A stretch of DNA of 32,000 nucleotides from an archaeon GW2011_AR10 (GTDB lineage Archaea > Iainarchaeota > Iainarchaeia > Iainarchaeales > GW2011-AR10), in contig CP010424.1 of NCBI GenBank assembly GCA_000830275.1, forward strand, positions 420,001 to 452,000. The letters run 5' to 3'. Shown here piece by piece: positions 7,563 to 25,486 of this stretch. The translations under genes and the position numbers were made by a program. A model generated the notes under the pieces. That model was not told the DNA's origin and ran no database searches. It saw nothing but the letters and a program-made list of their open reading frames with translations. Within the stretch, counting starts at the first letter, position 1; each line of letters starts with the position of its first letter.

Positions 7563-8033
7563 ATGAAAAGAAAATACCCCGGGTTGTTTCGAGGCTGCCT
7601 TGACATAAGCGGTAAAGGAGAGGTGAGAGGGAACGGGCTTTTTCACATGAGAACTAATGATCTTAGGGCAAGCCAGGTTATTACGGGGTGGAAGACAAAC
7701 GCGAGGCTTTACTGGAATTTGGGGGGGAGAATTTTGCGGGCCAGAATTGAGCCAGGCTATTACACTTATCATGAAGACCGGAAAGCGCATATAAGGAAGC
7801 TTATTGAGGAAACATTTCAAATTGCGAAAGAACGCGGGATAAAAACTGTTTTCTTTGACGGCATTGAACTTGGCCCAAAACAGCTTGAAGGTTTAGGGCT
7901 TGAACTAATTGGCAGGAAAAAAATCGAGGGGGAAACCGGGATTTTTGCCCACATAATCCACACCGGCGAGCATTTTGGGCAGCGAAGCCACAAGGCAGAA
8001 ATTGTTCTGTATTATTACAAAAAGGGGCTTTAA
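7563..8033 (+). CDS. hypothetical protein (156 aa)
   Basis: ATG lies 5 nt after the upstream stop. No family recognised. The C-terminal half (RKAHIRKLIEETFQIAKERGIKTVFFDGIELGPKQLEGLGLELIG) is vaguely GNAT-like but lacks the Q/RxxGxG/A motif. Confidence 0.5.
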   Translation: MKRKYPGLFRGCLDISGKGEVRGNGLFHMRTNDLRASQVITGWKTNARLYWNLGGRILRARIEPGYYTYHEDRKAHIRKLIEETFQIAKERGIKTVFFDGIELGPKQLEGLGLELIGRKKIEGETGIFAHIIHTGEHFGQRSHKAEIVLYYYKKGL

Positions 8034-8448: not shown

Positions 8449-9249
8449 ATGTTTTCTGCGCTGGTGCAGGGATTAAAAGACCTGGCTTTAAAGCCATCTA
8501 TTCTGCTTCCTGCAATTGTTTTCGTGCTGTTCAACGCGGTTCTGGCTGCCTTAAGCCAGGACACCATATTAGAGTTCTTTTACAACGTGATTTTCCTTGA
8601 GCAGCTGCCTTACGCCACGAATTGGGTGGAATTTTTTTACTTTTTTGTAATGATTTATTTCTGGCAGTTGCTTGCACTGGCACTGGTGCTATTTTTGGCT
8701 TACACCGCCAGCTTCTGGATGGCTTTTTCCTACAGCGCCTTCGTGAAAAACAAGGGAAAAACAGGGGCTGTTGCAAGCTCAACTCATGCGCTCTCAAGGA
8801 TTGGAAGCGCTGTAAGCCTTGCAGTTTTTTTCGGCATTGTGACACTGCTTTACGGCTTTCTGCTCATGGTTTTCTTTCTTTTAACCAGCCTGCCGGGGGA
8901 AAACATTGTGGGAGGATTAGGCCTGCTGCTCTTCCTGCTGTGGCTGGTTTTTGGCGTTTACCTCTTAGTGAAACTGCTTTTCCTCCCTTACATAGTTGGA
9001 GTGGAAGAATCCAAAACCAAGAATGCGGTGGAAAAGGCATGGCAGTGGAGTGGAAAGCACTTTTTTGGCATAATTGTTGTTTCACTAATAGTGGGCATTA
9101 TTGCTAATGTCATTGCCTTGGCTGGTTCGGCTTTAAGCGACTTTTTCGGGGAAAGCTTGGTTGCAGTTGCCGTGGTTGCACTGTTTGTTTCTGTTTCAGT
9201 GGCTTACTCTAACCTTGTTTTCGCGCACTATTATAATTCCACCCGCTAA
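8449..9249 (+). CDS. polytopic membrane protein, unknown function
   Basis: 266 aa with about 6 hydrophobic helices. No motif recognised. Confidence 0.65.
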   Translation: MFSALVQGLKDLALKPSILLPAIVFVLFNAVLAALSQDTILEFFYNVIFLEQLPYATNWVEFFYFFVMIYFWQLLALALVLFLAYTASFWMAFSYSAFVKNKGKTGAVASSTHALSRIGSAVSLAVFFGIVTLLYGFLLMVFFLLTSLPGENIVGGLGLLLFLLWLVFGVYLLVKLLFLPYIVGVEESKTKNAVEKAWQWSGKHFFGIIVVSLIVGIIANVIALAGSALSDFFGESLVAVAVVALFVSVSVAYSNLVFAHYYNSTR

Positions 9250-9309: not shown

Positions 9310-12300
9310 ATGCTGCGAGTAAACAAACTGCTGCTGAAGAATTTCAAGTCGTTCAAGAAGGCTGAAATACCCTTTCACGAGGGTTTCACAGCAATTGCCG
9401 GAGCGAATGCAAGCGGAAAATGTGTAGTTGGAGAAACGCGGATTCTCCTGCCCACAGGCGAAAGCAAGAAAATCAGGGAAATTGTGGAAGAAAACATTGA
9501 AAAGGCAAACAAAAAGCAGTTCCTTGAGGACGGCATAATCGGTTTTGTGGAGGACCCTAAACTTAAAGTAATCAGCCTCAATCCGCATACGCTTAAGGCA
9601 GAGGAAAGAATGGTAAGCGCAGTTGTGCAGAGGCTTTGCCCTGAACGATTGCTGAAAATAAAAACTAGAACAGGAAATGAAGTGACAACCACTGATTACC
9701 ATCCGTTCTTCAGCATCAACGAAAACGGGGTTTATTCGCTGCAGGCAAAAGACCTGAAAGAGGGGATTTTCATTGCTCTGCCTAGGGATTCCAGCGTGAA
9801 CAATGCAAAGAGCACTTTTTTCATTGAATTCCTGGAAGAGTTTGAGGCAAAAGACAATGTTTACGTGCCTTTTAATGAAAAATACCTGGAGCTGCTTGAC
9901 GATTACATTAAAATCACCCGGTGCTCCTTGAAAGAAACAGCGAGAAAGTTTGGCGTGCCGGTAATGGCATTGAAGGGATTGAAAAGCAAGCAGGCAATCA
10001 ATTTTGCGCACCTCGTAAAAATACTGGTGTTTTTGGGTTTTGAGCCGGAAATGATTGCGGAATTAATCCCGAAAGTAAAAGGAAAAACGCACAACATCGA
10101 AACCAAAATGGTTTGGAGAAACTCAAAAGAATTTTCAAGGTTATTGGGGTACATTTTTGCTGAAGGAAGCGTGTCAGGAAAAAACATCAGGGTTGTCAGC
10201 AAAACACCTGAAATTGTTGAGGATATTAAAAACATGTCCAAAAAAATTTTCGGGCTGGATGCAAAGGTATACAAATACAAGAACAAGGCATTTGACATCA
10301 TCCTGTACTCGCATGCGGTTTACAGGATTTTTTCAAAATTCGGGCTCGCAGAGGGGAAAAACGCAAAATCAAAAAAAATACACTGCATATTTTTCAGGCA
10401 CTCAAACAAAGCGGAATTCGCTGCCTTTTTGGATGGGTATTTATCCGGAGACGGATTTGTTTCAAAAAGCGTTATAAGCAGTACAACTGCAAGCGAGCAA
10501 CTTTCCAGAAACATTGAGGACATTTACCTTTCACTCGGAATAGTCGCACGGCGCAGAAAAATCACCAAAACAATCAAGGCAACAAGCTTCCGGGGAAATT
10601 ATTGGGAAGTGGTTGTAAGCGGCTACTCAAACATTCAGACATTTGCTGAGGAAATAACCCTTACGAACAAGTTCAAGATAAAAAGGGTTCATGAGCTTGC
10701 AAAAAATGGAAAGCACACTAACACGGATGTTATCCCAAACATAAACGGGTTAATCAAAAAGGCATGCCTGGAAGAAGAAGTAAAGTACGCGATAAAGAAG
10801 AATAAAAACATAAAACTTAAGTCTTACGCTGATTTTGCATGTTTTCCAAGCAGGCATGGCCTCCAAGAAGCAATGGAGCAGGAATTTGCAGGAAAACAAT
10901 CACAAAAAACGGTTCTACTGAACTCACTGGCACACTCTGATGTTTTTTGGGATTCAATCTTGTCAATTGAGGAAGTTGAAAAGAAACCGAAATATGTTTA
11001 TGACTTGTGTGTTGATTACTCGCACAATTTCATTGCAAACAACATTTTTGTGCACAATAGCAATGTTCTTGACTCACTGCTTTTTGTTTTCGGCATAACC
11101 AGCCTGAAAATGCTGCGCGCCTCAAAGCTCACTGAATTGGTCAACCATGATTCAAAGGAAGACTACGCCAAGGTTGAAGTGGAGCTGCAGGATGGTGAAA
11201 AAACCTGGCAGATTTCTAGGACCATTGACACTCGCGGCCAGTCAGTGGTTAGGCTGGATGGCAGAAAGAAGGGCCTAAACGAGGTTACTTCCCTGCTTCA
11301 AGAGCTGGGGGTAAAGGCTACAGGCCACAACATTGTGGTGCAGGGCGACATCACCAGGATTATTGAGATGAGCCCAAAGCAGCGCAGGGAAATAATTGAC
11401 GAAATAGCAGGGTTGGCTGAATTCGAGGAAAAGAAAGTGGAGGCATTGAATAAGCTTGAGAAAGTTGAGGAAAGAATAAAGGACGCCAACATTGTCCTTA
11501 ATGAGAGGCAGGCATACCTTGAAGAACTGGAAAAGGAAAAAGCAGCTGCCTCGCGATTCAATGAACTCACTGAAAAGCTCAGGAAAAGCAAGGCAACAAT
11601 TCTCTTCGAGGAGAGCAGGAGGTTAAGGGAAGAACTGGGAAAAGCCGAGAAAGCCATTGATGCTGCGCGGCAAGAAATACAGAGGCAGGAAACAAAGCGC
11701 CAGGAGCTGCTGGAGCAAGAGAAAGCCGCGGAGGAAAAAATCGAGGAACTAACCAACAGGCTCATTAAGCTGAACGAAAAAACTTATTCAACCATTGGAA
11801 AAGAGGTTGAAGAGAAGAGGTCTGAGAGCAGAATCCTGAGGGACAGACTGGAACAGAAAAAACTCTCAATTGAAAGCCACTCGAATGTTCTCTCAAAACT
11901 GAAGGCTGAAGCGTCTTCGCTTAAAGAGGAAATGGAAGTAAAGGAAAAGCTTGCTGCCGGCACAAAAGAAAAAATTGTGGCCTTGGAGCAAAGCTTGAAG
12001 GAACTAGGCCGGGAAAAAGAAGCTGTCACTGCAAGGATTTCACCTAAAGACAGGGAAGTAAAAGCAAAAGAGAAAGAGCTGAGAGGAATTGAGAGCAGCA
12101 TCTCTGAACTCAAGGAACTGCTTTTTGAGAAAAGGATTTCGCTGGAAAAGCACTCAAAGGAGAAAGAAGTCCTAAACAGGAAACTCTCAGAGCTTGGAGA
12201 GGAAAAAAAGCAGCTTGAGGCACGGCTGGAGGAAAAGAAAAAACTTGAAAAGCAGATGCAGGGCTTTACTGACCTAAACCCCCAGAAAGTGCTTGAACTG

Positions 12301-13926
12301 CATGAAAAAAAAATTGAAAGAATTATGGAGGACCTCCATTTTGAAAGGGGGCAAACCGGGCACCTGAAAGATTCTGTAAACTCGCTTAAGGGCATTAAAG
12401 CAAAGTGCCCTGTATGTGATCAGAGCATTGACAGGAAAACAGTTGAGCAGCTGATAAAGGCGAGAGACGAAAATATAAGGAACCTTTCAAAGAGCATTGA
12501 AAAAAAGCAAAGCGAGAGAGAGCTTTTAGGCAGGCAGAAGGCCGAAGCGCTTCATAACCTGCACTTGCTGAGCGAGCTAAAGGGAAAGCTGAATGCATTT
12601 GAGGCAGTGGATGAAAGGTTCAGGGAAAAAAGCAGGGCAATTATTGAACTCAAGGAAAAGCTTTCAGGAATCGGCACAGAAAAGTTTTCTGCGGAAATAA
12701 AAGCGATTGAGTCAAAAATTTCTAGGCTGGCAGAACAGAAAGGCGCGCTGGACAAACAGCTGTTTGCCTCCAAGGAATCGTTTGCGGAAAGCAACCTTGA
12801 CGAACTGCTTGGAAAAATTGATGCCCTGAACGCTGAAAAGTCACGCAATGAAACAACACTTGCAAGGCTTGAAAGCGAGCTATTGCACGGCATTGAAAGA
12901 AGGCTGAAAGAAATTGAAAGGGAAAAAAAGGAAAGAGAAGAGCAGAACTCGTCTTTGCACAGGGAATTGAATGAGAGCCAAAAAAAACTGGCTGAACTTG
13001 AAGGGGAGCTGAGCGTAAAGGAAGCTGAAATGAGGAAGGCAGAGTCATCCAGCAAGCTGTTGGAGGAAGAAAAGCTTAGACTCCAGACAAGGCTCGTAAA
13101 TATTGAGGAAAAATCCAATTCAGTTGAAGCAAAGATTTCAAAGGTGGAAAAAGAAATCAACGAGCTTAATCTCGGCAAGTCAAAGAACGAAGTCAGGCTG
13201 TCAGACTTAGAGGAAGAACAGAAAGCGTTTGGGGAAATACAGCCATTCAAATCCTACAACCTTCAGGAACTAAGGCAAGGAATTCCTGCAATAGAGAAAG
13301 AAATTTCATCGCTCGGCGCAATCAACATGAAGGCGCTGGAAAGGTTTGGCGAGTTAAGCAAGGAAGTAAGCGAGATGCGGGAAAAAGTAAGCAAGCTTGA
13401 CGAGGAAAGGCAGGCAGTTGCTGAAATGATTGACAAAATAGAGTTAAAGAAATTGAATGTTTTCATGCAGTGCTTTGAGCAGATAAGCAAAAAATTTTCA
13501 GACCTTTACTACCTGTTTTTTGAGGGAGAGGGAAAACTGGAGTTAAGCAGCAAGGAAGAGCCACTGGAAGGAGGCCTGCTGATTCAGGCAAAGTACAAGG
13601 AGGACAAAATGAAGAGCATTGACGCAATGAGTGGCGGGGAAAAAACCTTAACCGCGCTGGCATTTCTGTTTGCGATTCAATCCTTTGAGGCAGCCCCATT
13701 CTACATTTTTGATGAAGCTGATGCAGCGCTTGACAAGGAGAATTCATTGAAGCTTGCAAGAATGATAAAGGAAGTAAGCAAGACCTCACAGTTCATTGCA
13801 ATAACCCACAATGATGCGATAATAAAGGCAGCTGACCAAATAATCGGGGTTGCATTAAACCAGCAGAAGAGTTCAGTCATAGGGTTAAGGCTGAAAGAAA
13901 GGGCAGCTACCGCTTCAAACACTTAA
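9310..13926 (+). CDS. smc: SMC-like chromosome ATPase precursor (intein-containing); 992 aa after splicing
   Basis: - Walker A GANASGK|S is split by the intein.
- Q-loop region: VVQGDITRIIEMSPKQRREIIDEIAGLAEFEEKK.
- Signature motif: MSGGEKTLTALAFLFAIQ.
- Walker B: PFYIFDEADAALD.
- H-loop: QFIAITHN.
- Long Glu/Lys/Leu coiled coils, with a central CPVC motif rather than a hinge. Confidence 0.9.
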   Translation: MLRVNKLLLKNFKSFKKAEIPFHEGFTAIAGANASGKCVVGETRILLPTGESKKIREIVEENIEKANKKQFLEDGIIGFVEDPKLKVISLNPHTLKAEERMVSAVVQRLCPERLLKIKTRTGNEVTTTDYHPFFSINENGVYSLQAKDLKEGIFIALPRDSSVNNAKSTFFIEFLEEFEAKDNVYVPFNEKYLELLDDYIKITRCSLKETARKFGVPVMALKGLKSKQAINFAHLVKILVFLGFEPEMIAELIPKVKGKTHNIETKMVWRNSKEFSRLLGYIFAEGSVSGKNIRVVSKTPEIVEDIKNMSKKIFGLDAKVYKYKNKAFDIILYSHAVYRIFSKFGLAEGKNAKSKKIHCIFFRHSNKAEFAAFLDGYLSGDGFVSKSVISSTTASEQLSRNIEDIYLSLGIVARRRKITKTIKATSFRGNYWEVVVSGYSNIQTFAEEITLTNKFKIKRVHELAKNGKHTNTDVIPNINGLIKKACLEEEVKYAIKKNKNIKLKSYADFACFPSRHGLQEAMEQEFAGKQSQKTVLLNSLAHSDVFWDSILSIEEVEKKPKYVYDLCVDYSHNFIANNIFVHNSNVLDSLLFVFGITSLKMLRASKLTELVNHDSKEDYAKVEVELQDGEKTWQISRTIDTRGQSVVRLDGRKKGLNEVTSLLQELGVKATGHNIVVQGDITRIIEMSPKQRREIIDEIAGLAEFEEKKVEALNKLEKVEERIKDANIVLNERQAYLEELEKEKAAASRFNELTEKLRKSKATILFEESRRLREELGKAEKAIDAARQEIQRQETKRQELLEQEKAAEEKIEELTNRLIKLNEKTYSTIGKEVEEKRSESRILRDRLEQKKLSIESHSNVLSKLKAEASSLKEEMEVKEKLAAGTKEKIVALEQSLKELGREKEAVTARISPKDREVKAKEKELRGIESSISELKELLFEKRISLEKHSKEKEVLNRKLSELGEEKKQLEARLEEKKKLEKQMQGFTDLNPQKVLELHEKKIERIMEDLHFERGQTGHLKDSVNSLKGIKAKCPVCDQSIDRKTVEQLIKARDENIRNLSKSIEKKQSERELLGRQKAEALHNLHLLSELKGKLNAFEAVDERFREKSRAIIELKEKLSGIGTEKFSAEIKAIESKISRLAEQKGALDKQLFASKESFAESNLDELLGKIDALNAEKSRNETTLARLESELLHGIERRLKEIEREKKEREEQNSSLHRELNESQKKLAELEGELSVKEAEMRKAESSSKLLEEEKLRLQTRLVNIEEKSNSVEAKISKVEKEINELNLGKSKNEVRLSDLEEEQKAFGEIQPFKSYNLQELRQGIPAIEKEISSLGAINMKALERFGELSKEVSEMREKVSKLDEERQAVAEMIDKIELKKLNVFMQCFEQISKKFSDLYYLFFEGEGKLELSSKEEPLEGGLLIQAKYKEDKMKSIDAMSGGEKTLTALAFLFAIQSFEAAPFYIFDEADAALDKENSLKLARMIKEVSKTSQFIAITHNDAIIKAADQIIGVALNQQKSSVIGLRLKERAATASNT
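9421..11058 (+). mobile_element. 546-aa intein with a LAGLIDADG homing-endonuclease domain, inserted in the SMC P-loop
   Basis: - Block A: Cys1 in CVVGETRILLPTGE.
- Block B: TxxH in EVTTTDYHPFF.
- LAGLIDADG motifs: LLGYIFAEGSV and FLDGYLSGDGFV.
- C-terminal block: VYDLCVDYSHNFIANNIFVHN, followed by +1 Ser.
- The flanks rejoin to GANASGK-SNVLDSLLFVFG. Confidence 0.9.
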
Positions 13927-16361: not shown

Positions 16362-18857
16362 CTAAGCACTCTGCTCTGGCTGGACAAAAGGCTTTTTTTT
16401 GGCAGGAGCTTTGCCTGTTTTACCGGCTTGTTTTGCTGCCTTTAAAGCAGTTTCCTTATACTGTGGTTTTTGTTTTAAAGCGTAAGGCTTTTTAGGCGCA
16501 AATGACTGCTTTTTACTTGCAGCCGGTTTGGATGTTTTTTGCACGCCTTTCTTCAACTGCCCCATTTCCTGTTTTTCCCTTTCAAGCTCAAGGCTTTCCT
16601 TCCAACCCATGCCATGCAACTCAGAAATTCTTTTCTCAAGAACCGCAGACCTTTTTTTGAACTCGCCCTTGGACAGCAGGCCATCCCTTAAGTGAGCATT
16701 TAGTTCCCTTAACCTTGTCTTCAAGGCCTCAACCTCTGCCTCATTTTCCTCAATTTCAAGCAAAGTTTTCACTCTTCTCGCCCTCAAAGACTCAAGGGAA
16801 GCAAGCTCAGCAGCGTACCTATTAGCCAGCTCTGCGTGCTTTTCCTCGCTTATTTTGCCAGCAGTGAAGGCAGTATCTGCCTTTCTTTGAAGCTCTTTCA
16901 CGCTCTGCATTTCAGAGGCAATAGAAAACCTCTTCTCACCCCTCAAAATTGTAATGGTTAACACTATTCCAAACAAGAAAACCGCGCCAGAAAACATGAC
17001 AAGGACACCAAGCATTAAAGGCGAATCAAAAATGTTTGACTGAGAAGGAGCTGGAGCACTTAAACCATTATCCGCCTCAATTATTTCCGACTCATCCAGG
17101 GAAGCAAAGCGCTCATACATTGGAGAGGCAGCCTCAAAAACTTCTTCAGCCAAAGAAACCAGGCCAATGCCGTTCTTCAAGGAATTGACTGCCTGGGTTC
17201 CCTGATTCAATTCCTTATAGTAATTGGCTGAAGCCAAAAAGAACTTGGCGTGGTCCAAGTAAAGCACAGGCCAAGCAAAATCGAAACTTGAACTTAAAAT
17301 CTTTTGCTCCAGCACATTAATCCTCTGCTCCAATTCAGAGTAGAGGCCCTCAACGTTTTTTCCTTCAACAGCTGCCTCGCTTGAAGCAAGCGCTTTAGCT
17401 GAAGCCGAATCAAAAGCCGAAGCAGCATTCCAGCCTAGTTCCCTTTCAACCTTTGCAGCGTTAAGCCTCCTGACAATATCTTCCTTGTCACCAGAAGTGA
17501 GCAGTGTAACAGAGTTCTCTGCTTCAACAATCAAGCTGTCAGCCATTTCCTTGAACGCATCTGTTTTCCTTACACGCTTCACTGACTGCCTTGTTATCTC
17601 ATAGAAATCCTTGGAAACATCATACCATGCAGCAGCAAACTCGTAATCCCTGATTTTCTCGAATACTGCTCCTAAATCAGTGCCATTGCCAGTGTCAACC
17701 ACAATTGTCTGAGTGTTGAGAAGCCTCTCAACGTTTATCTCAGCATAGGTTAAGCGCTGCTGCGCTGAAACATGCCACTCAAAGAAATCAATTGGCACTG
17801 ACTTGTCAAGGTCCATGCGCAGGTTCTCAATGTCTTTGCGCAAAATATCCAGCTTCAGTTCAAGAACCGTAGAATTGAGCGCAAGAATGGATGGGTTGTC
17901 GGAAATATCTCTAACAATCATTGCGTTAACCCTTGCAAGGAACGCGAAGTTTGCGGCGGAGTAAAGGTAGTTCTGGTCGTTTAGGATTTCAGCCTGCCTT
18001 ATTGTCTGCTCTGCATCATTCAAAGTGTCAAGCAGGGTGTTAACCAAGGAAGTGTCCTCAAGCAGTGTTGTTGAAAGAGAAGTGCGGGCGCTCTCGATAA
18101 TTGCTTTTGTTTCCTTCAAATAGTTTGAGGTGAGCTCCTTCATAACCCCCAAGTTTGGCTTATAAGTTATTTCCTGCGGCACAAAGTCAGGCACTGCTTC
18201 CTCTGCTGTCTGGTTAATGTCAATCTCTTCAATGTCAGAGAAAGCATATTTTAGGACTTCATCAATTGTTGAGACTTCCACAACCTTCAAACCAAACTCT
18301 TTCGGAGCATAATCAACCAAGTTAATGCTCTGAACCTTTCCATCAATTTTAACTGTCTGGATGGCCTCGCCCTTTGGAATCATGAACAGTTTAATGCCTG
18401 TGTTTGCTGCTTCCGCTGTTTTCTCAAAAACGCCTCCAACAGGCCCAACGAAACCGTCACTGCTAATTGTGCCAGTAAGGCTTACATTGCTTGGAAGAAC
18501 CTTGCTCTGCAGCATTGAAATAACCAGCAAGCTCATTGCTGCGCCAGCGGATGGGCCCTCAACAAGCGAAGCGTTCGAGGCAATCGAAAACTTGTAGTCA
18601 AAGCTGCTTACCTGCCCGGAATAATTCCTCGCAAGGTTTACTGCTTCTCTCGCGGCATTCTGCGTTGTTGTTCCAACCAGTGGCTCAACTGAGGTCCAAA
18701 CCTTTCCAGTGCCTGGGTCCAAATCAAGCACTAGGTCAGCTGCCAGGCCCTGCCCCTCAGTGGTAACAGCGTAAATCTTCATTTCTCCGTGCTCAACAAC
18801 AGCTAAAACACTTGAAGCGTACAGCAGAACAAACAAAAAAAACAGCAGCCTCTTCAT
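16362..18857 (-). CDS. secreted, C-terminally membrane-anchored Lon (S16)-like serine protease with a long helical ectodomain and a Lys-rich cytoplasmic tail
   Basis: - Signal peptide: MKRLLFFLFVLLYASSVLA.
- S16 domain: VEGPSAGAAMSLL...SLTGTISSDGFVGPVGGVFEKTAEAANTGIKLFMIP aligns with the E. coli Lon catalytic Ser/Lys region.
- TM helix at residues 615-639.
- Start: ATG 18857 preferred (GGTG 5 nt upstream); the ORF track starts one codon earlier at GTG 18860. Confidence 0.8.
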   Translation of the reverse strand: MKRLLFFLFVLLYASSVLAVVEHGEMKIYAVTTEGQGLAADLVLDLDPGTGKVWTSVEPLVGTTTQNAAREAVNLARNYSGQVSSFDYKFSIASNASLVEGPSAGAAMSLLVISMLQSKVLPSNVSLTGTISSDGFVGPVGGVFEKTAEAANTGIKLFMIPKGEAIQTVKIDGKVQSINLVDYAPKEFGLKVVEVSTIDEVLKYAFSDIEEIDINQTAEEAVPDFVPQEITYKPNLGVMKELTSNYLKETKAIIESARTSLSTTLLEDTSLVNTLLDTLNDAEQTIRQAEILNDQNYLYSAANFAFLARVNAMIVRDISDNPSILALNSTVLELKLDILRKDIENLRMDLDKSVPIDFFEWHVSAQQRLTYAEINVERLLNTQTIVVDTGNGTDLGAVFEKIRDYEFAAAWYDVSKDFYEITRQSVKRVRKTDAFKEMADSLIVEAENSVTLLTSGDKEDIVRRLNAAKVERELGWNAASAFDSASAKALASSEAAVEGKNVEGLYSELEQRINVLEQKILSSSFDFAWPVLYLDHAKFFLASANYYKELNQGTQAVNSLKNGIGLVSLAEEVFEAASPMYERFASLDESEIIEADNGLSAPAPSQSNIFDSPLMLGVLVMFSGAVFLFGIVLTITILRGEKRFSIASEMQSVKELQRKADTAFTAGKISEEKHAELANRYAAELASLESLRARRVKTLLEIEENEAEVEALKTRLRELNAHLRDGLLSKGEFKKRSAVLEKRISELHGMGWKESLELEREKQEMGQLKKGVQKTSKPAASKKQSFAPKKPYALKQKPQYKETALKAAKQAGKTGKAPAKKKPFVQPEQSA

Positions 18858-19004
18858 CACTACACCACTTCCGGAGCCATTCTAAAATTTAATAATTAAA
18901 GAAATATAAAATAAACAGGTATGATAAACTGGTATGTGCAAAACTAGAAAAGCCCATGGACTATAGCAAACTATGGGAAAACCCAAGAAAAAAGAAAACA
19001 GGCT

Positions 19005-24008: not shown

Positions 24009-24893
24009 ATGCCTAAAGCAATTGCAGTGCTGAGCAAAGGCAAAGGCTTTGCAGCGAAGCTCTCCGGGAAGCTTGGAATCAAAAAGCTTCCGCTCAAGTT
24101 GGATGTATTCCCAGACGGCGAATTATACGTAAGGTTTTTGGGTAGCGTGAAAGGAAAAACCATTTACATGGTGCAGAGCCTGAGCGGTGCTCCAAACAAT
24201 GCCCTGCTGGAGTTGTTCCTTGCCGCAAGAACAGCAAAAGAGCTCGGCGCAAAAAAAGTTTTCGGAATACTCCCATACCTTGGTTACATGCGCCAAGACA
24301 AAAGGTTTAAGGCAGGGGAATGCTTTTCCGCGAAAGAGGTTGCGTGGCTGTTGAGCAACTGCCTTGACAGGCTTTACACCTTTGACGCGCACCTCCACAG
24401 AATCAAATCATTGAACAAAATTTTCAGGATTCCGGCAAAAAATCTTAGTTCTGCTAAGCCAATAGCCGCATACATCAAGAAAAAATTTTCCAGCAAAAAT
24501 ACAGTTATTGTTGGCCCGGACATTGAGAGCTCGCAGTGGGCTGCAAAAATCGCGAAAAGCATTGGCTTTGAGTCAACAATTCTGCGCAAGAAGAGGTTCC
24601 ATTCAAGGAAGGTTAAAGTGCACGTTCACAAGGAACTTGAATGGAAAGGAAAAAACGTTGTCATCGTTGACGACATTGTGAGCTCTGGCCACACAATGGC
24701 TGAAGCAATCAAGGCAGTGAAAAAGCGAGGAGTCAAAGAAGTGCATTGCATCTGCATTCACGCAGTCTTCTCCGAGGATGCGCTGCGCAAAATCAGAAAA
24801 GCAGGCGCAAAAAGCATTGCAAGCTGCAACACGATTCCTCATGCAACAAATAAAATTGATGTGAGCGGTGAAATGGCGGAAGAACTTCGATGA
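24009..24893 (+). CDS. prs: ribose-phosphate pyrophosphokinase (PRPP synthase)
   Basis: FPDGELYVRF, ALLELFLAARTAKELGAKKV, ILPYLGYMRQDKRF, and the PRPP loop VVIVDDIVSSGHTM. Confidence 0.9.
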   Translation: MPKAIAVLSKGKGFAAKLSGKLGIKKLPLKLDVFPDGELYVRFLGSVKGKTIYMVQSLSGAPNNALLELFLAARTAKELGAKKVFGILPYLGYMRQDKRFKAGECFSAKEVAWLLSNCLDRLYTFDAHLHRIKSLNKIFRIPAKNLSSAKPIAAYIKKKFSSKNTVIVGPDIESSQWAAKIAKSIGFESTILRKKRFHSRKVKVHVHKELEWKGKNVVIVDDIVSSGHTMAEAIKAVKKRGVKEVHCICIHAVFSEDALRKIRKAGAKSIASCNTIPHATNKIDVSGEMAEELR

Positions 24894-25486
24894 AAAGAGT
24901 ACTGTATGTTCCTGTAACAGGACGAGGAAGAAAACCAAAACTACGCAGGCTTAGTAAATCTTCTAGTTATTCTGGAGTTGAACGTGAAGTTGTCAAGCAA
25001 TTAAGAGGAACCTTAAAACCGGCAAAGGCTATTGCAAAAGACTTTGGGATTCCTAGGAGCATGGTTACAACAATAAATCGCAGGCATGGCTGCAGAAGCA
25101 GATATATTTCTTACCTTGTGGGCCAACGACTTGGATTGAAATGGCGAGAACTCCCAAAAAGAAACCTTCTCTCCGTAGAACATAAAAATAGAATTATTAA
25201 GCAAAATCTTCGATTCATTAGAAATTTTGCCGGAAAGTACAGGGAGTGGGGCACAAAACAAGACAGGGAGGATTTAATGCAGCAGGCTACTTTAATGGCA
25301 TTTGAAGCACTGGATCATTATGACCCGGCTCTTTGCAGCGAAAGGGTCTTTGTTTTACTTGTTACAAGGAAAGTAATCAGGGCAACTGGTTATGACATTC
25401 GCTTGCAGAAAAAACTTTTCAGCAGTCTTGATGAATTCCCTTTGCTTGAATCCCATGCAACCGGAAAAGAAAAACCACATATTTAA
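24890..25486 (+). CDS. hypothetical DNA-binding protein: N-terminal HTH plus sigma-70 region-2-like domain
   Basis: ATG overlaps the prs stop (ATGA). Residues ~40-66, KPAKAIAKDFGIPRSMVTTINRRHG, look like an HTH. Residues ~98-166, IIKQNLRFIRNFAGKY...REDLMQQATLMAFEALDHYDP...VFVLLVTRKVIRA, parallel sigma-70 region 2 ([16 protein letters not shown]...[18 protein letters not shown]...). Confidence 0.6.
   Translation: MKRVLYVPVTGRGRKPKLRRLSKSSSYSGVEREVVKQLRGTLKPAKAIAKDFGIPRSMVTTINRRHGCRSRYISYLVGQRLGLKWRELPKRNLLSVEHKNRIIKQNLRFIRNFAGKYREWGTKQDREDLMQQATLMAFEALDHYDPALCSERVFVLLVTRKVIRATGYDIRLQKKLFSSLDEFPLLESHATGKEKPHI

What the first reader, a model, noticed from the sequence alone, without database searches (positions are those of the whole stretch)
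9310..13926. SMC-type ATPase heads joined by a Rad50-type CxxC zinc hook instead of a hinge domain
- Seen: after conceptual intein removal the protein is 992 aa.
- Seen: both heads follow the SMC pattern closely. N-terminal head: VVQGDITRIIEMSPKQRREIIDEIAGLAEFEEKKVEAL. C-terminal head: GAINMKALERF..., MSGGEKTLTALAFLFAIQ, PFYIFDEADAALD, QFIAITHN. As I remember both families, this is far closer to P. furiosus SMC than to Rad50.
- Seen: there is no ~150-aa globular hinge. Almost exactly at the midpoint (residue 487 of 992 spliced; nt 12406-12417) lies SLKGIKAKCPVCDQSIDRKTVEQL, flanked on each side by ~330 aa of heptad-rich sequence. The Rad50 hook in P. furiosus reads ...KCPVCGRELT...
- Knowledge: SMC proteins dimerise through the hinge and Rad50 through a shared Zn at the hook. 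Archaeal rad50 normally neighbours mre11/herA/nurA, and none is present here.
- Inference: a hybrid architecture, with SMC heads (and presumably a kleisin interface) plus hook dimerisation. It may represent a distinct SMC-superfamily branch.
Basis: partly seen in the sequence, partly recalled or inferred. Interest (0 to 1): 0.75.

Follow-up and report, generated by a model that had tools for sequence, protein, structure and literature searches.

The report
Hinge-less archaeal SMC with zinc hook
The chromosome-organising SMC ATPase of a tiny DPANN archaeon has lost the hinge domain that normally joins two SMC molecules and carries a Rad50-like CPxC zinc-hook motif in its place, a swap I could find described only as a laboratory construct.

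Summary
ORF 9310-13926 (+) encodes a 1538-aa precursor. Removing a 546-aa intein from the Walker A loop leaves a 992-aa protein.

- **Heads:** they are clearly SMC type. NCBIfam SMC_prok_A scores 208/223 bits on the N-/C-head, against Rad50 61/44 and ASRP 32/36. The best PDB matches are Pyrococcus Smc heads.
- **Centre:** no SMC hinge is detected, although the same model finds hinges in the closest canonical relatives. At the apex (residue 487) lies CPVC.
- **Conservation:** CPxC is present in 111 of the 120 closest homologues, always about 355 residues after the Q-loop. Of 69 central segments, 56 hit Pfam Rad50_zn_hook.
- **Structure:** AlphaFold gives an uninterrupted coiled-coil hairpin whose best structural matches are Rad50 hooks.
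- **Origin:** the window matches archaeon GW2011_AR10 (Iainarchaeota/Diapherotrites). The hinge-less clade is monophyletic, sister to hinge-bearing Micrarchaeota SMCs, and sits in a conserved ribosomal-protein neighbourhood. It is therefore a derived SMC ortholog, not a Rad50, an ASRP or a separate superfamily branch.
- **Variants:** some clade members have also lost the hook, and one syntenic relative keeps a hinge.

Zinc-mediated dimerisation and a ScpA partner are inferred, not shown. I found no prior description of this natural architecture.

The parts
9310..13926 (+). Whole gene: 1538-aa precursor of a hinge-less, hook-bearing SMC (992 aa after protein splicing), including the stop codon
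   Evidence: ORF list. 100% identical to P0001 'chromosome segregation protein [archaeon GW2011_AR10]'. SMC_prok_A 551 bits.
9310..9420 (+). N-extein: spliced residues 1-37, the first beta strands and Walker A up to GANASGK
   Evidence: Translation and splice-junction mapping.
9421..11058 (+). 546-aa intein with a LAGLIDADG homing endonuclease, inserted between K37 and S38 of Walker A. It starts with Cys, ends with His-Asn, and the +1 residue is Ser.
   Evidence: Pfam Intein_splicing 98 bits and LAGLIDADG_3 68 bits. The same insertion site is occupied in 9 of 120 relatives by 545-551-aa or 190-192-aa inteins.
11059..11415 (+). Rest of the N-terminal ATPase head (spliced residues 38-156), including the invariant R57 (within LRASK, nt 11113-11127) and the Q-loop VVQGD (nt 11335-11349)
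   Evidence: The N-head (spliced residues 1-177) scores 207.6 bits on SMC_prok_A against 61 for Rad50 and 32 for ASRP. Motif coordinates. AF2 secondary structure.
11416..12390 (+). Ascending coiled-coil arm (spliced residues 157-481), with helix breaks at 196-207 and 362-367
   Evidence: AF2 full-length model: helices 157-195, 208-361, 368-443 and 445-481. Collinear with the arms of SMC_prok_A.
12391..12432 (+). Apex or hook loop (spliced residues 482-495) containing CPVC (nt 12406-12417). It replaces the ~170-aa SMC hinge.
   Evidence: C, P and C are the only invariant columns of the central region. Pfam Rad50_zn_hook hits 56 of 69 members. The AF2 hairpin has pLDDT 95.9. The top Foldseek hits are the Rad50 hooks 5gox and 1l8d. 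Extended consensus L-x-K-x4-C-P-[VTI]-C-[DE]-x2-[LI].
12433..13332 (+). Descending coiled-coil arm (spliced residues 496-795), with helix breaks at 550-553, 574-576, 610-615, 761-771 and 788-795
   Evidence: AF2 full-length model. Residues 500-982 align with positions 677-1165 of the 1165-position SMC_prok_A profile, so the hinge part of the profile is skipped.
13333..13923 (+). C-terminal ATPase head (spliced residues 796-992): signature motif MSGGEK (nt 13627-13644), Walker B FYIFDEAD (13699-13722), D-loop (13723-13734) and H-loop ITHN (13801-13812)
   Evidence: C-head alone scores 222.9 bits on SMC_prok_A against 44 for Rad50 and 36 for ASRP. PDB: Pyrococcus Smc heads 248-313 bits. Foldseek: 4i99 Smc head TM 0.87-0.88, rmsd 2.6 A for 4i99_B.

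Best explanation
This is the SMC (condensin-type) ATPase of Candidatus Iainarchaeum (archaeon GW2011_AR10, a DPANN archaeon).

**Shown**
- It descends from a canonical hinge-bearing archaeal SMC.
- The ~170-residue hinge dimerisation domain has been replaced by a ~14-residue turn carrying a conserved CPxC[D/E] motif at the tip of SMC-length coiled-coil arms.
- The heads, arm length and genomic position are those of the lineage's SMC.

**Inferred**
- Two protomers are held together at the apex by one Zn2+ bound by the four cysteines, as in Rad50.
- This would give a constitutive homodimer whose ATPase heads engage and disengage with ATP and organise chromosomal DNA. It presumably does so together with a kleisin (ScpA) encoded elsewhere in the genome.

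**Precondition**
- The protein becomes active only after the 546-aa intein splices out of its Walker A loop.
For: **Heads**
- SMC_prok_A scores 551 bits on the full protein and 208/223 bits on the N-/C-head alone. Rad50 scores 61/44 and ASRP 32/36.
- PDB phmmer ranks Pyrococcus Smc heads first (248-313 bits), and Rad50 heads at 50-68 bits.
- The full-length AF2 model's best Foldseek hits are Smc4, P. yayanosii Smc and the Pf Smc head (TM 0.87-0.88).

**Apex**
- No hinge is found, with a positive control in the nearest canonical SMCs.
- CPxC is present in 111 of 120 homologues, with an extended conserved motif.
- Rad50_zn_hook is hit by 56 of 69 central segments, best E 4.6e-7.
- The AF2 hairpin has pLDDT 95.9, and the top three PDB matches are Rad50 hooks.

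**Arms**
- The hook sits 354.9 +/- 3.9 residues after the Q-loop and 301.7 +/- 3.4 residues before the C-head motif.
- It occupies the position (residue ~487) where the hinge starts in Micrarchaeota SMCs.

**Orthology**
- The hinge-less clade is monophyletic in 100/100 bootstraps. It groups with hinge-bearing Micrarchaeota/DPANN SMCs in 98-100/100.
- In the 1.84-billion-protein library there is a score gap between the family (>=239 bits) and hinge-bearing SMCs (<=208 bits).
- The same gene neighbourhood (L44e, SMC, Lon-like, P1/P0/L1/L11/Spt5/FtsZ) is found in all loci examined. This includes a hinge-bearing relative, P0145.

**Precedent**
- A B. subtilis Smc carrying the P. furiosus Rad50 hook is functional (PMC5344682).
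- Hook and hinge are interchangeable in Rad50 (PMC6969161).
Against: - Zinc binding and apex dimerisation are not shown. AF2 was run on a monomer only.
- Nine of the 120 closest homologues, and about a quarter of the full-length family representatives, have neither hinge nor hook although they occupy the same locus. The hook is therefore dispensable in some lineages and might not be the main dimerisation device.
- No scpA or scpB gene lies next to any hinge-less smc.
- An ScpA profile search returned only Micrarchaeota-type ScpAs in its top 120. A kleisin partner in Iainarchaeota is therefore unproven.
- I could not check whether the same genomes also carry a second, canonical SMC or a Rad50.
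- The window's own Rad50_zn_hook score is just below Pfam's gathering threshold.
- Foldseek E-values for the hook are weak (~0.02), as expected for coiled coils.
Confidence: 0.75

Rival explanations
1. The CPxC apex is not an intermolecular zinc hook. It only caps or stabilises the coiled-coil turn, for example with an intramolecular metal or a disulfide. The protein would dimerise elsewhere (arm-arm rod contacts, ATP-engaged heads, a bridging partner) or act as a monomer closed by a partner.
For: - Hook-less, hinge-less relatives of 905-957 aa occur at several places in the clade. They are not monophyletic (0/100 bootstraps).
- They occupy the same genomic locus, so they are presumably functional without any apex module.
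- Hinge-less SMCs without CxxC have also been reported in marine Actinomycetes (PMC12153180).
Against: - Two cysteines cannot complete a tetrahedral zinc site within one chain, and no other conserved Cys or His is nearby.
- The conserved flanks (L-7, K-5, [DE]+4, [LIV]+7, K+12) match the Rad50 hook profile over 47 of its 52 positions.
- Conservation of C-P-x-C is absolute across sequences only ~34% identical in this region.
Confidence: 0.15
2. It is a Rad50 orthologue or functional replacement, a DNA double-strand-break repair ATPase working with Mre11. Its heads would only happen to resemble SMC.
For: - A hook motif sits at the coiled-coil apex.
- The total length (992 aa) is nearer to archaeal Rad50 (~880 aa) than to SMC (~1170 aa).
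- DPANN genomes are reduced, so one protein might cover two roles (inference only).
Against: - The heads score 3.4-5 times higher on SMC than on Rad50 profiles.
- PDB ranking puts Rad50 heads far below every SMC.
- The clade is nested in archaeal SMC with 98-100% bootstrap.
- The arms are collinear with SMC arms, and the locus is that of a hinge-bearing SMC relative.
- No mre11, herA or nurA lies in the window or in nine related loci.
Confidence: 0.04
3. It belongs to the archaea-specific SMC-related proteins (ASRP: ClsN/coalescin, Sph1/2), the known SMC-like family with a zinc hook.
For: ASRPs combine SMC-like heads with a hook (PMC9389158). The NCBIfam ASRP model gives 138 bits on the full protein.
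Against: - 138 bits is far below the ASRP cutoff of 300 and below the SMC_prok_A score of 551.
- On the heads alone ASRP scores 32-36 bits against 208-223 for SMC.
- The ASRP profile is 593 positions long, whereas this protein is 992 aa with full SMC-length arms.
- Its nearest relatives are hinge-bearing SMCs.
Confidence: 0.03
4. It is a paralogous or defence-type SMC-like ATPase (Wadjet JetC, Lamassu LmuB, MADS) that coexists with a canonical SMC.
For: PADLOC gives hits to mad3 (183 bits) and LmuB (84 bits). The presence of a second SMC in these genomes could not be checked.
Against: - The PADLOC scores are far below the SMC score and cover generic head regions.
- No defence partners are nearby. 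The gene lies in a conserved housekeeping neighbourhood across relatives only ~40% identical.
- The gene tree mirrors the Iainarchaeota/Micrarchaeota relationship.
- None of the nearest hinge-bearing SMCs that carry a name is attributed to Diapherotrites.
Confidence: 0.03

Closest known systems
Canonical archaeal Smc of Smc-ScpA(B) condensin (NCBIfam TIGR02169 SMC_prok_A; Pyrococcus Smc, PDB 4i99/5xei/5xns)
   Same: - The ABC head has all motifs and is the closest in sequence and predicted structure.
- The arms are of SMC length, with joint- and elbow-like breaks.
- Phylogenetic position and chromosomal neighbourhood are those of the lineage's SMC.
   Different: - The hinge (PF06470) is absent and is replaced by a 14-residue CPxC turn.
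- The protein is ~170 aa shorter and falls below the equivalog cutoff (551 against 729 bits).
- scpA is not adjacent, unlike in most Euryarchaeota (PMC7055376).
Rad50 zinc hook (Pfam PF04423; PDB 1L8D, 5GOX)
   Same: CPxC lies at the tip of an antiparallel coiled coil. There is profile similarity over 47 of 52 positions, and Rad50 hooks are the best structural matches of the predicted apex.
   Different: - The heads, arms and evolutionary origin are SMC, not Rad50.
- There is no Mre11 neighbour.
Engineered chimeras: B. subtilis Smc carrying the P. furiosus Rad50 hook (PMC5344682), and Rad50 carrying a MukB hinge (PMC6969161)
   Same: The architecture is the same as the Smc(Zh) construct, with SMC heads and arms joined by a hook. 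The chimera supports growth, which shows the design can work.
   Different: Here the swap arose in nature, is fixed in a whole clade, and has a tightly conserved arm length (+/-4 residues). Its function has not been tested.
ASRP (ClsN/coalescin, Sph1/Sph2), archaea-specific SMC-related proteins with a zinc hook (PMC9389158; NCBIfam NF045487)
   Same: Archaeal SMC-superfamily ATPases that carry a hook instead of a hinge.
   Different: ASRPs are much shorter (593-position profile) and have divergent heads. This protein scores 138 bits against a cutoff of 300, and its heads score 32-36 bits.
'Hinge-less' SMC cluster of marine Actinomycetes (PMC12153180, 2025)
   Same: Bona fide SMC heads and arms with the hinge lost. 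It resembles the hook-less members of this clade.
   Different: That cluster is bacterial and explicitly lacks a CxxC motif. The clade described here is archaeal (DPANN) and mostly carries CPxC.

Membership tests
SMC sensu stricto (TIGR02169 SMC_prok_A / Smc-ScpAB condensin) | ABC-type head with Walker A, Q-loop, signature motif, Walker B, D-loop and H-loop, closest in sequence to SMC heads | tested here: met
   Motifs located. Heads alone score 208/223 bits on SMC_prok_A against <=61 for any other family. Pyrococcus Smc heads are the best PDB hits. Foldseek 4i99 TM 0.87-0.88.
SMC sensu stricto (TIGR02169 SMC_prok_A / Smc-ScpAB condensin) | Two ~300-residue antiparallel coiled-coil arms | tested here: met
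   AF2 helices 157-481 and 496-858 with a few breaks. Collinear match to the profile's arms. Conserved arm length.
SMC sensu stricto (TIGR02169 SMC_prok_A / Smc-ScpAB condensin) | Central globular hinge dimerisation domain (Pfam PF06470) | tested here: not met
   No hinge hit in the protein, in 69 central segments, or in any of 120 homologues. The same models detect hinges in Micrarchaeota SMCs and in 78 other SMCs.
SMC sensu stricto (TIGR02169 SMC_prok_A / Smc-ScpAB condensin) | Score above the curated equivalog cutoff | tested here: not met
   551 bits against a cutoff of 729.4. The shortfall corresponds to the skipped hinge part of the profile.
SMC sensu stricto (TIGR02169 SMC_prok_A / Smc-ScpAB condensin) | Descent from SMC (phylogeny and synteny) | tested here: met
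   The clade is nested in archaeal SMC and groups with hinge-bearing Micrarchaeota/DPANN SMCs at 98-100/100 NJ bootstrap. A hinge-bearing relative, P0145, occupies the same locus.
SMC sensu stricto (TIGR02169 SMC_prok_A / Smc-ScpAB condensin) | Kleisin partner ScpA (with or without ScpB) encoded in the genome | tested here: inconclusive
   No scpA or scpB lies within +/-10 kb of any hinge-less smc. The ScpA searches found only other lineages. The whole genome could not be read. The sister lineage Micrarchaeota has non-adjacent scpAB (PMC7055376).
Rad50 | CxxC zinc hook at the coiled-coil apex | tested here: met
   Met at the level of sequence and predicted fold only. Zinc binding itself is not testable with these tools.
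Rad50 | Rad50-type ATPase head (NCBIfam Rad50 equivalogs) | tested here: not met
   Best Rad50 model scores 126 bits against a cutoff of 700. On the heads alone it scores 61/44 bits, against 208/223 for SMC.
Rad50 | Genomic association with mre11 (and herA/nurA in archaea) | tested here: not met
   None in the 32-kb window or in nine related loci.
ASRP (ClsN/Sph; NF045487) | Profile score above the cutoff, and the short architecture modelled by the 593-position ASRP profile | tested here: not met
   138 bits against a cutoff of 300. 992 aa with SMC-length arms. The heads score 32-36 bits.
Intein (the insertion within the gene) | Splicing blocks with N-terminal Cys, C-terminal His-Asn and a +1 nucleophile, with an optional homing endonuclease | tested here: met
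   Intein_splicing 98 bits and LAGLIDADG_3 68 bits. C...HN|S junctions restore the GKS Walker A. The same site is occupied in 9 of 120 relatives.

The most novel reading that the evidence does not exclude
A whole DPANN lineage (Iainarchaeota/Diapherotrites) would organise its chromosome with a single SMC that has no hinge and is held together by a Rad50-type zinc hook. Repeated secondary loss of even the hook would then show that a dedicated apex dimerisation or DNA-binding module is not required for SMC function. A conserved six-helix membrane protein, encoded immediately upstream only where the hinge is missing, might act as a new partner that tethers or closes the complex.
Probability: 0.2. 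Interest if true: 0.85.

Novelty: new variant of a known kind. Interest (0 to 1): 0.68.

Why it matters
- **Roles proposed for the hinge.** The hinge is treated as a defining part of every bona fide SMC. It has been proposed as a DNA-binding site, a DNA entry gate and the anchor for loop extrusion.
- **What was known.** The laboratory chimeras I found showed that a Rad50 hook can stand in for it. I found no report of such a swap occurring and persisting in nature.
- **A graded natural series.** This clade contains a hinge with short arms (P0145), hooks with tightly fixed arm length (the majority), and members with neither (several lineages). All sit in the same chromosomal position. That makes the question 'what is the hinge for?' directly testable with natural proteins.
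- **Possible origin of other hook proteins.** The series also gives a plausible route by which hook-bearing SMC-like proteins such as ASRP or Rad50 could arise from hinge-bearing ancestors.
- **Annotation.** Many of these proteins carry only generic names such as 'AAA family ATPase', others are called chromosome segregation proteins, and the window's protein falls below the SMC equivalog cutoff.

Tried and rejected
1. **ScpA by N-terminal motif.** Searching the fetched loci for the bacterial-style ScpA motif (F.GPLDLL) found nothing, because the motif recalled from memory was wrong for archaea. Reading the ORFs downstream of smc in halophile and methanogen loci gave the archaeal motif GEIDPWDIDI and real ScpA/ScpB sequences.
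2. **Local ScpA/ScpB HMMs.** They found scpA next to smc in 15 loci, but in no hinge-less or Micrarchaeota locus.
3. **Word-indexed ScpA searches.** The search with the ScpA of an uncultured archaeon gave only 21 hits. The profile search that followed returned 120 Micrarchaeota-type ScpAs. None was named Diapherotrites, and none lay on a contig whose length matched a hook-SMC contig. The question 'do these genomes have a kleisin?' therefore stays open.
4. **Genome-contig scan.** It was useless for distribution but supplied outgroups and positive controls.
5. **Conserved 274-aa winged-helix protein (5184-6008, -).** I considered it as a divergent kleisin or kite. It has no Pfam match and no similarity to the ScpA or ScpB HMMs, so I set it aside.
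6. **Defence-system SMC.** Rejected on PADLOC scores and gene context.
7. **Literature.** Searches for SMC + zinc hook + DPANN/Diapherotrites, hinge + CxxC + archaea, and DPANN + Rad50/ScpA found no description of this architecture. The library holds open-access papers only, so an earlier mention cannot be excluded.
Full report
**1. What is in the sequence**

The ORF at 9310-13926 (+) encodes 1538 aa. Residues 38-583 (nt 9421-11058) form an intein. It starts with Cys and ends with His-Asn, and the next residue is Ser. It matches Pfam Intein_splicing (98 bits) and LAGLIDADG_3 (68 bits). Removing it restores the Walker A sequence GANASGKS and leaves 992 aa.

The spliced protein has only three cysteines, and two of them are in this motif.

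The protein is 100% identical to a database entry named 'chromosome segregation protein [archaeon GW2011_AR10]', carried on a 1.24-Mb contig. I take that organism to be Candidatus Iainarchaeum (Iainarchaeota/Diapherotrites, DPANN) from my own knowledge. One search returned only the lineage of that genus. The window is an ordinary archaeal chromosomal region with ribosomal proteins L44e, P1, P0, L1 and L11, Spt5, FtsZ and a pyrimidine operon. It has no scpA, scpB, mre11, herA or nurA.

**2. The heads are SMC heads**

- **NCBIfam, full protein:** SMC_prok_A 551 bits, SMC_prok_B 396, ASRP 138, best Rad50 model 126.
- **NCBIfam, heads alone:** the N-head scores 207.6 on SMC_prok_A against 61 (Rad50) and 32 (ASRP). 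The C-head scores 222.9 against 44 and 36.
- **PDB by sequence:** Pyrococcus Smc heads come first (5xei 313, 5xns 273, 4i99 248 bits). Bacterial Smc heads follow (~130-158 bits), then eukaryotic SMC1-4 (~92-145 bits). Rad50 heads come far below (50-68 bits).
- **Predicted structure:** a full-length AlphaFold model (pLDDT 79.3) has the two-lobed ABC head. Its best Foldseek matches are yeast Smc4, P. yayanosii Smc head with joint, and Smc5/6. The P. furiosus Smc head matches at TM 0.87-0.88 (rmsd 2.6 A for 4i99_B). Rad50 appears only at rank 9.
- **Motifs:** Walker A, the invariant R57, Q-loop, signature motif, Walker B, D-loop and H-loop are all present.

**3. There is no hinge, and the apex looks like a Rad50 hook**

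- **Hinge absent.** Pfam finds no SMC_hinge in the protein or in any of 69 central segments of family members. This is not a sensitivity problem. The same model scores 95-99 bits at residues ~488-600 of the nearest canonical SMCs, from Micrarchaeota. A local hinge HMM found hinges in 78 other SMCs and in none of the 120 closest homologues.
- **Profile alignment.** Residues 500-982 align with positions 677-1165 of the 1165-position SMC_prok_A profile. The hinge part of the profile is simply skipped, and the protein is 173 residues shorter than the profile.
- **Hook profile.** Pfam Rad50_zn_hook matches the window's central 154 aa at 23.4 bits (E 5e-5, gathering score 24.3). It matches 56 of 69 family members at E <= 0.01, best 4.6e-7.
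- **Conservation.** C, P and C are the only invariant columns in that region, which has 34% mean identity. Over 125 sequences the motif extends to L(-7) 88%, K(-5) 65%, C-P-[VTI]-C, [DE](+4) 92%, [LIV](+7) 98% and K(+12) 80%.
- **Predicted fold.** AlphaFold predicts helix 2-70, a 14-residue turn and helix 85-153 at pLDDT 95.9. The three best PDB matches are the human and P. furiosus Rad50 hooks, 5gox and 1l8d. Their E-values are weak (~0.02), which is normal for coiled coils.
- **Full-length model.** It shows no globular domain between helices 157-481 and 496-858. It has a few breaks that plausibly correspond to the SMC joint and elbow.

**4. It is a clade, and it is the lineage's SMC ortholog**

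- **Hook and hinge never co-occur.** Of the 120 closest proteins (39-54% identity; named Diapherotrites, 'ainarchaeum', or generic archaeon, and one Micrarchaeota), 111 carry CPxC, 9 carry neither hook nor hinge, and none has a hinge.
- **A discrete family.** I searched 1.84 billion cluster representatives with the C-head. The family (53 representatives, >=239 bits) is separated by a gap from the next proteins (<=208 bits). The full-length proteins in that second tier are almost all hinge-bearing SMCs of mostly ~1100-1220 aa, and none of them carries CPxC. Those that carry names are Micrarchaeota or 'DPANN group' SMCs.
- **Tree.** NJ trees on 359 head columns give the hinge-less clade 100/100 bootstrap. 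Its grouping with hinge-bearing Micrarchaeota/DPANN SMCs gets 98-100/100, inside the archaeal SMC_prok_A-type radiation.
- **Synteny.** The neighbourhood L44e(-), ~260-aa membrane protein(+), SMC(+), then a Lon-like gene and the P1/P0/L1/L11/Spt5/FtsZ genes, recurs around relatives only ~40% identical.
- **Arm length.** The hook sits 354.9 +/- 3.9 residues after the Q-loop and 301.7 +/- 3.4 before the C-head motif. This fits the finding that Smc function depends on arm length and register (PMC5344682).

The protein is therefore a derived SMC. It is not a Rad50, not an ASRP, and not an independent superfamily branch.

**5. Variants that shape the evolutionary story**

- **Hook-less members.** P0028, P0033, P0051, P0067, P0091, P0107, P0110, P0116, P0121 and others are 905-957 aa and lack both hinge and hook. 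They are not monophyletic (0/100). Those I looked up (P0033, P0067 and P0091) sit in the same locus. The hook therefore seems to have been lost more than once.
- **A hinge-bearing member.** P0145 is 1012 aa with arms about 70 residues shorter per strand. It has a bona fide hinge and lies between L44e and the Lon-like gene like the others. It groups with the hinge-less clade in 99/100 replicates, but its position within the clade is unresolved. It is sister to all the rest in only 13/100. Its hinge is closest (35-43% identity) to hinges of the sister group, which is compatible with vertical retention.

Distance trees cannot decide whether the hinge was replaced once, with P0145 basal, or more than once.

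**6. How it most likely works**

- **Shown:** SMC heads, SMC-length arms, a hook-like apex, orthology to SMC, and an intein that must splice before Walker A is intact.
- **Inferred from established knowledge of Rad50 hooks:** two CPxC motifs from two chains bind one Zn2+ and make a constitutive dimer. The ATP-driven head cycle would then act on DNA as in Smc-ScpAB.
- **Precedent:** B. subtilis Smc with the P. furiosus hook is functional (PMC5344682). Hook and hinge are interchangeable in Rad50 (PMC6969161).
- **Weak points:** zinc binding is untested, the hook-less relatives exist, and the kleisin is missing from the evidence. scpA lies directly downstream of smc in many archaeal loci I fetched. 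It does not in Micrarchaeota, where scpA-scpB pairs lie elsewhere (PMC7055376 Table 2), nor in any hinge-less locus. My searches did not reach an Iainarchaeota ScpA.

**7. Comparison with what is known, and novelty**

Known relatives of the idea are:

- Rad50/SbcC hooks.
- ASRP (ClsN/Sph), an archaeal SMC-related family with a hook, but with short arms and divergent heads (PMC9389158).
- The engineered chimeras.
- A 2025 report of hinge-less SMCs in marine Actinomycetes that explicitly lack CxxC (PMC12153180).

I found no paper that describes a natural bona fide SMC with a zinc hook. The searchable library is open-access only. Many of these proteins carry only generic names such as 'AAA family ATPase', while others, including the window's, are called chromosome segregation proteins. 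I rate this a new variant of a known kind.

**8. Verdict**

Interest is moderately high. It is a natural hinge-to-hook replacement with naturally occurring hook-less and hinge-bearing siblings, so the role of the SMC hinge can be tested directly.

Noticed in passing
window 9421-11058 (+): A 546-aa LAGLIDADG intein splits the Walker A loop (GK|S) of the SMC. The same site carries full-size (545-551 aa) or mini (190-192 aa) inteins in 9 of the 120 closest relatives, including one hook-less member (P0040).
   Followed up: partly
window 8449-9249 (+); L001 9137-9943; L002 9177-9956; L004 9078-9869; L089 7142-7918; L090 7006-7797; L091 7216-7995: A ~260-aa protein with about six hydrophobic helices and no Pfam family lies directly upstream of every hinge-less smc examined, on the same strand and 5-200 nt away. 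It is absent upstream of the hinge-bearing relative P0145 (L088) and of the Micrarchaeota smc genes. It may be co-transcribed. A functional link is speculation, and there is only one hinge-bearing comparison inside the clade.
   Followed up: partly
P0028, P0033, P0040, P0051, P0067, P0091, P0107, P0110, P0116, P0121, P0129, P0131, P0137, P0142, P0151; loci L089-L091: SMCs of the same clade and the same locus have neither hinge nor CxxC. They are 905-957 aa (P0040 is 1509 aa because it carries an intein) and are scattered at several positions in the tree. How they dimerise, if they do, is unexplained.
   Followed up: partly
L088 5188-8226 (protein P0145): A 1012-aa SMC with a normal hinge but arms about 70 residues shorter per strand. 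It lies in the same L44e/Lon-like synteny and groups with the hinge-less clade in 99/100 replicates. It could be a transitional or hinge-retaining form. It rests on a single 11.5-kb contig.
   Followed up: partly
window 5184-6008 (-): A 274-aa protein with an N-terminal winged-helix-like segment and no Pfam match is conserved near the smc locus in most related contigs (178-254 bits by phmmer). It shows no similarity to the ScpA or ScpB HMMs.
   Followed up: partly
window 2236-2342 (+): Rfam finds a tRNA of 107 nt (44 bits), presumably containing an intron. ARAGORN reported no tRNA in the window.
   Followed up: no
window 16362-18860 (-): An 832-aa protein whose only Pfam match is a Lon protease C-terminal domain, at residues 98-207. 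The remaining ~600 residues are unassigned. It is conserved next to smc in all related loci.
   Followed up: no
window 24890-25486 (+): A 198-aa ORF in this archaeal genome gives a weak Pfam hit to bacterial Sigma70 region 2 (26.4 bits, E 6e-6), which is unexpected for an archaeon.
   Followed up: no
window 6061-7557 (+) and 7506-8033 (+): Two ORFs of 498 and 175 aa that overlap by about 50 nt and have no Pfam match. They are basic and repetitive in composition. Whether they are real genes is unclear.
   Followed up: no
L086 6001-7195; L087 6001-7199: In Micrarchaeota-type contigs, scpA and scpB are adjacent and lie near trm5, spt5 and L11 rather than next to smc. This agrees with Table 2 of PMC7055376.
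   Followed up: partly
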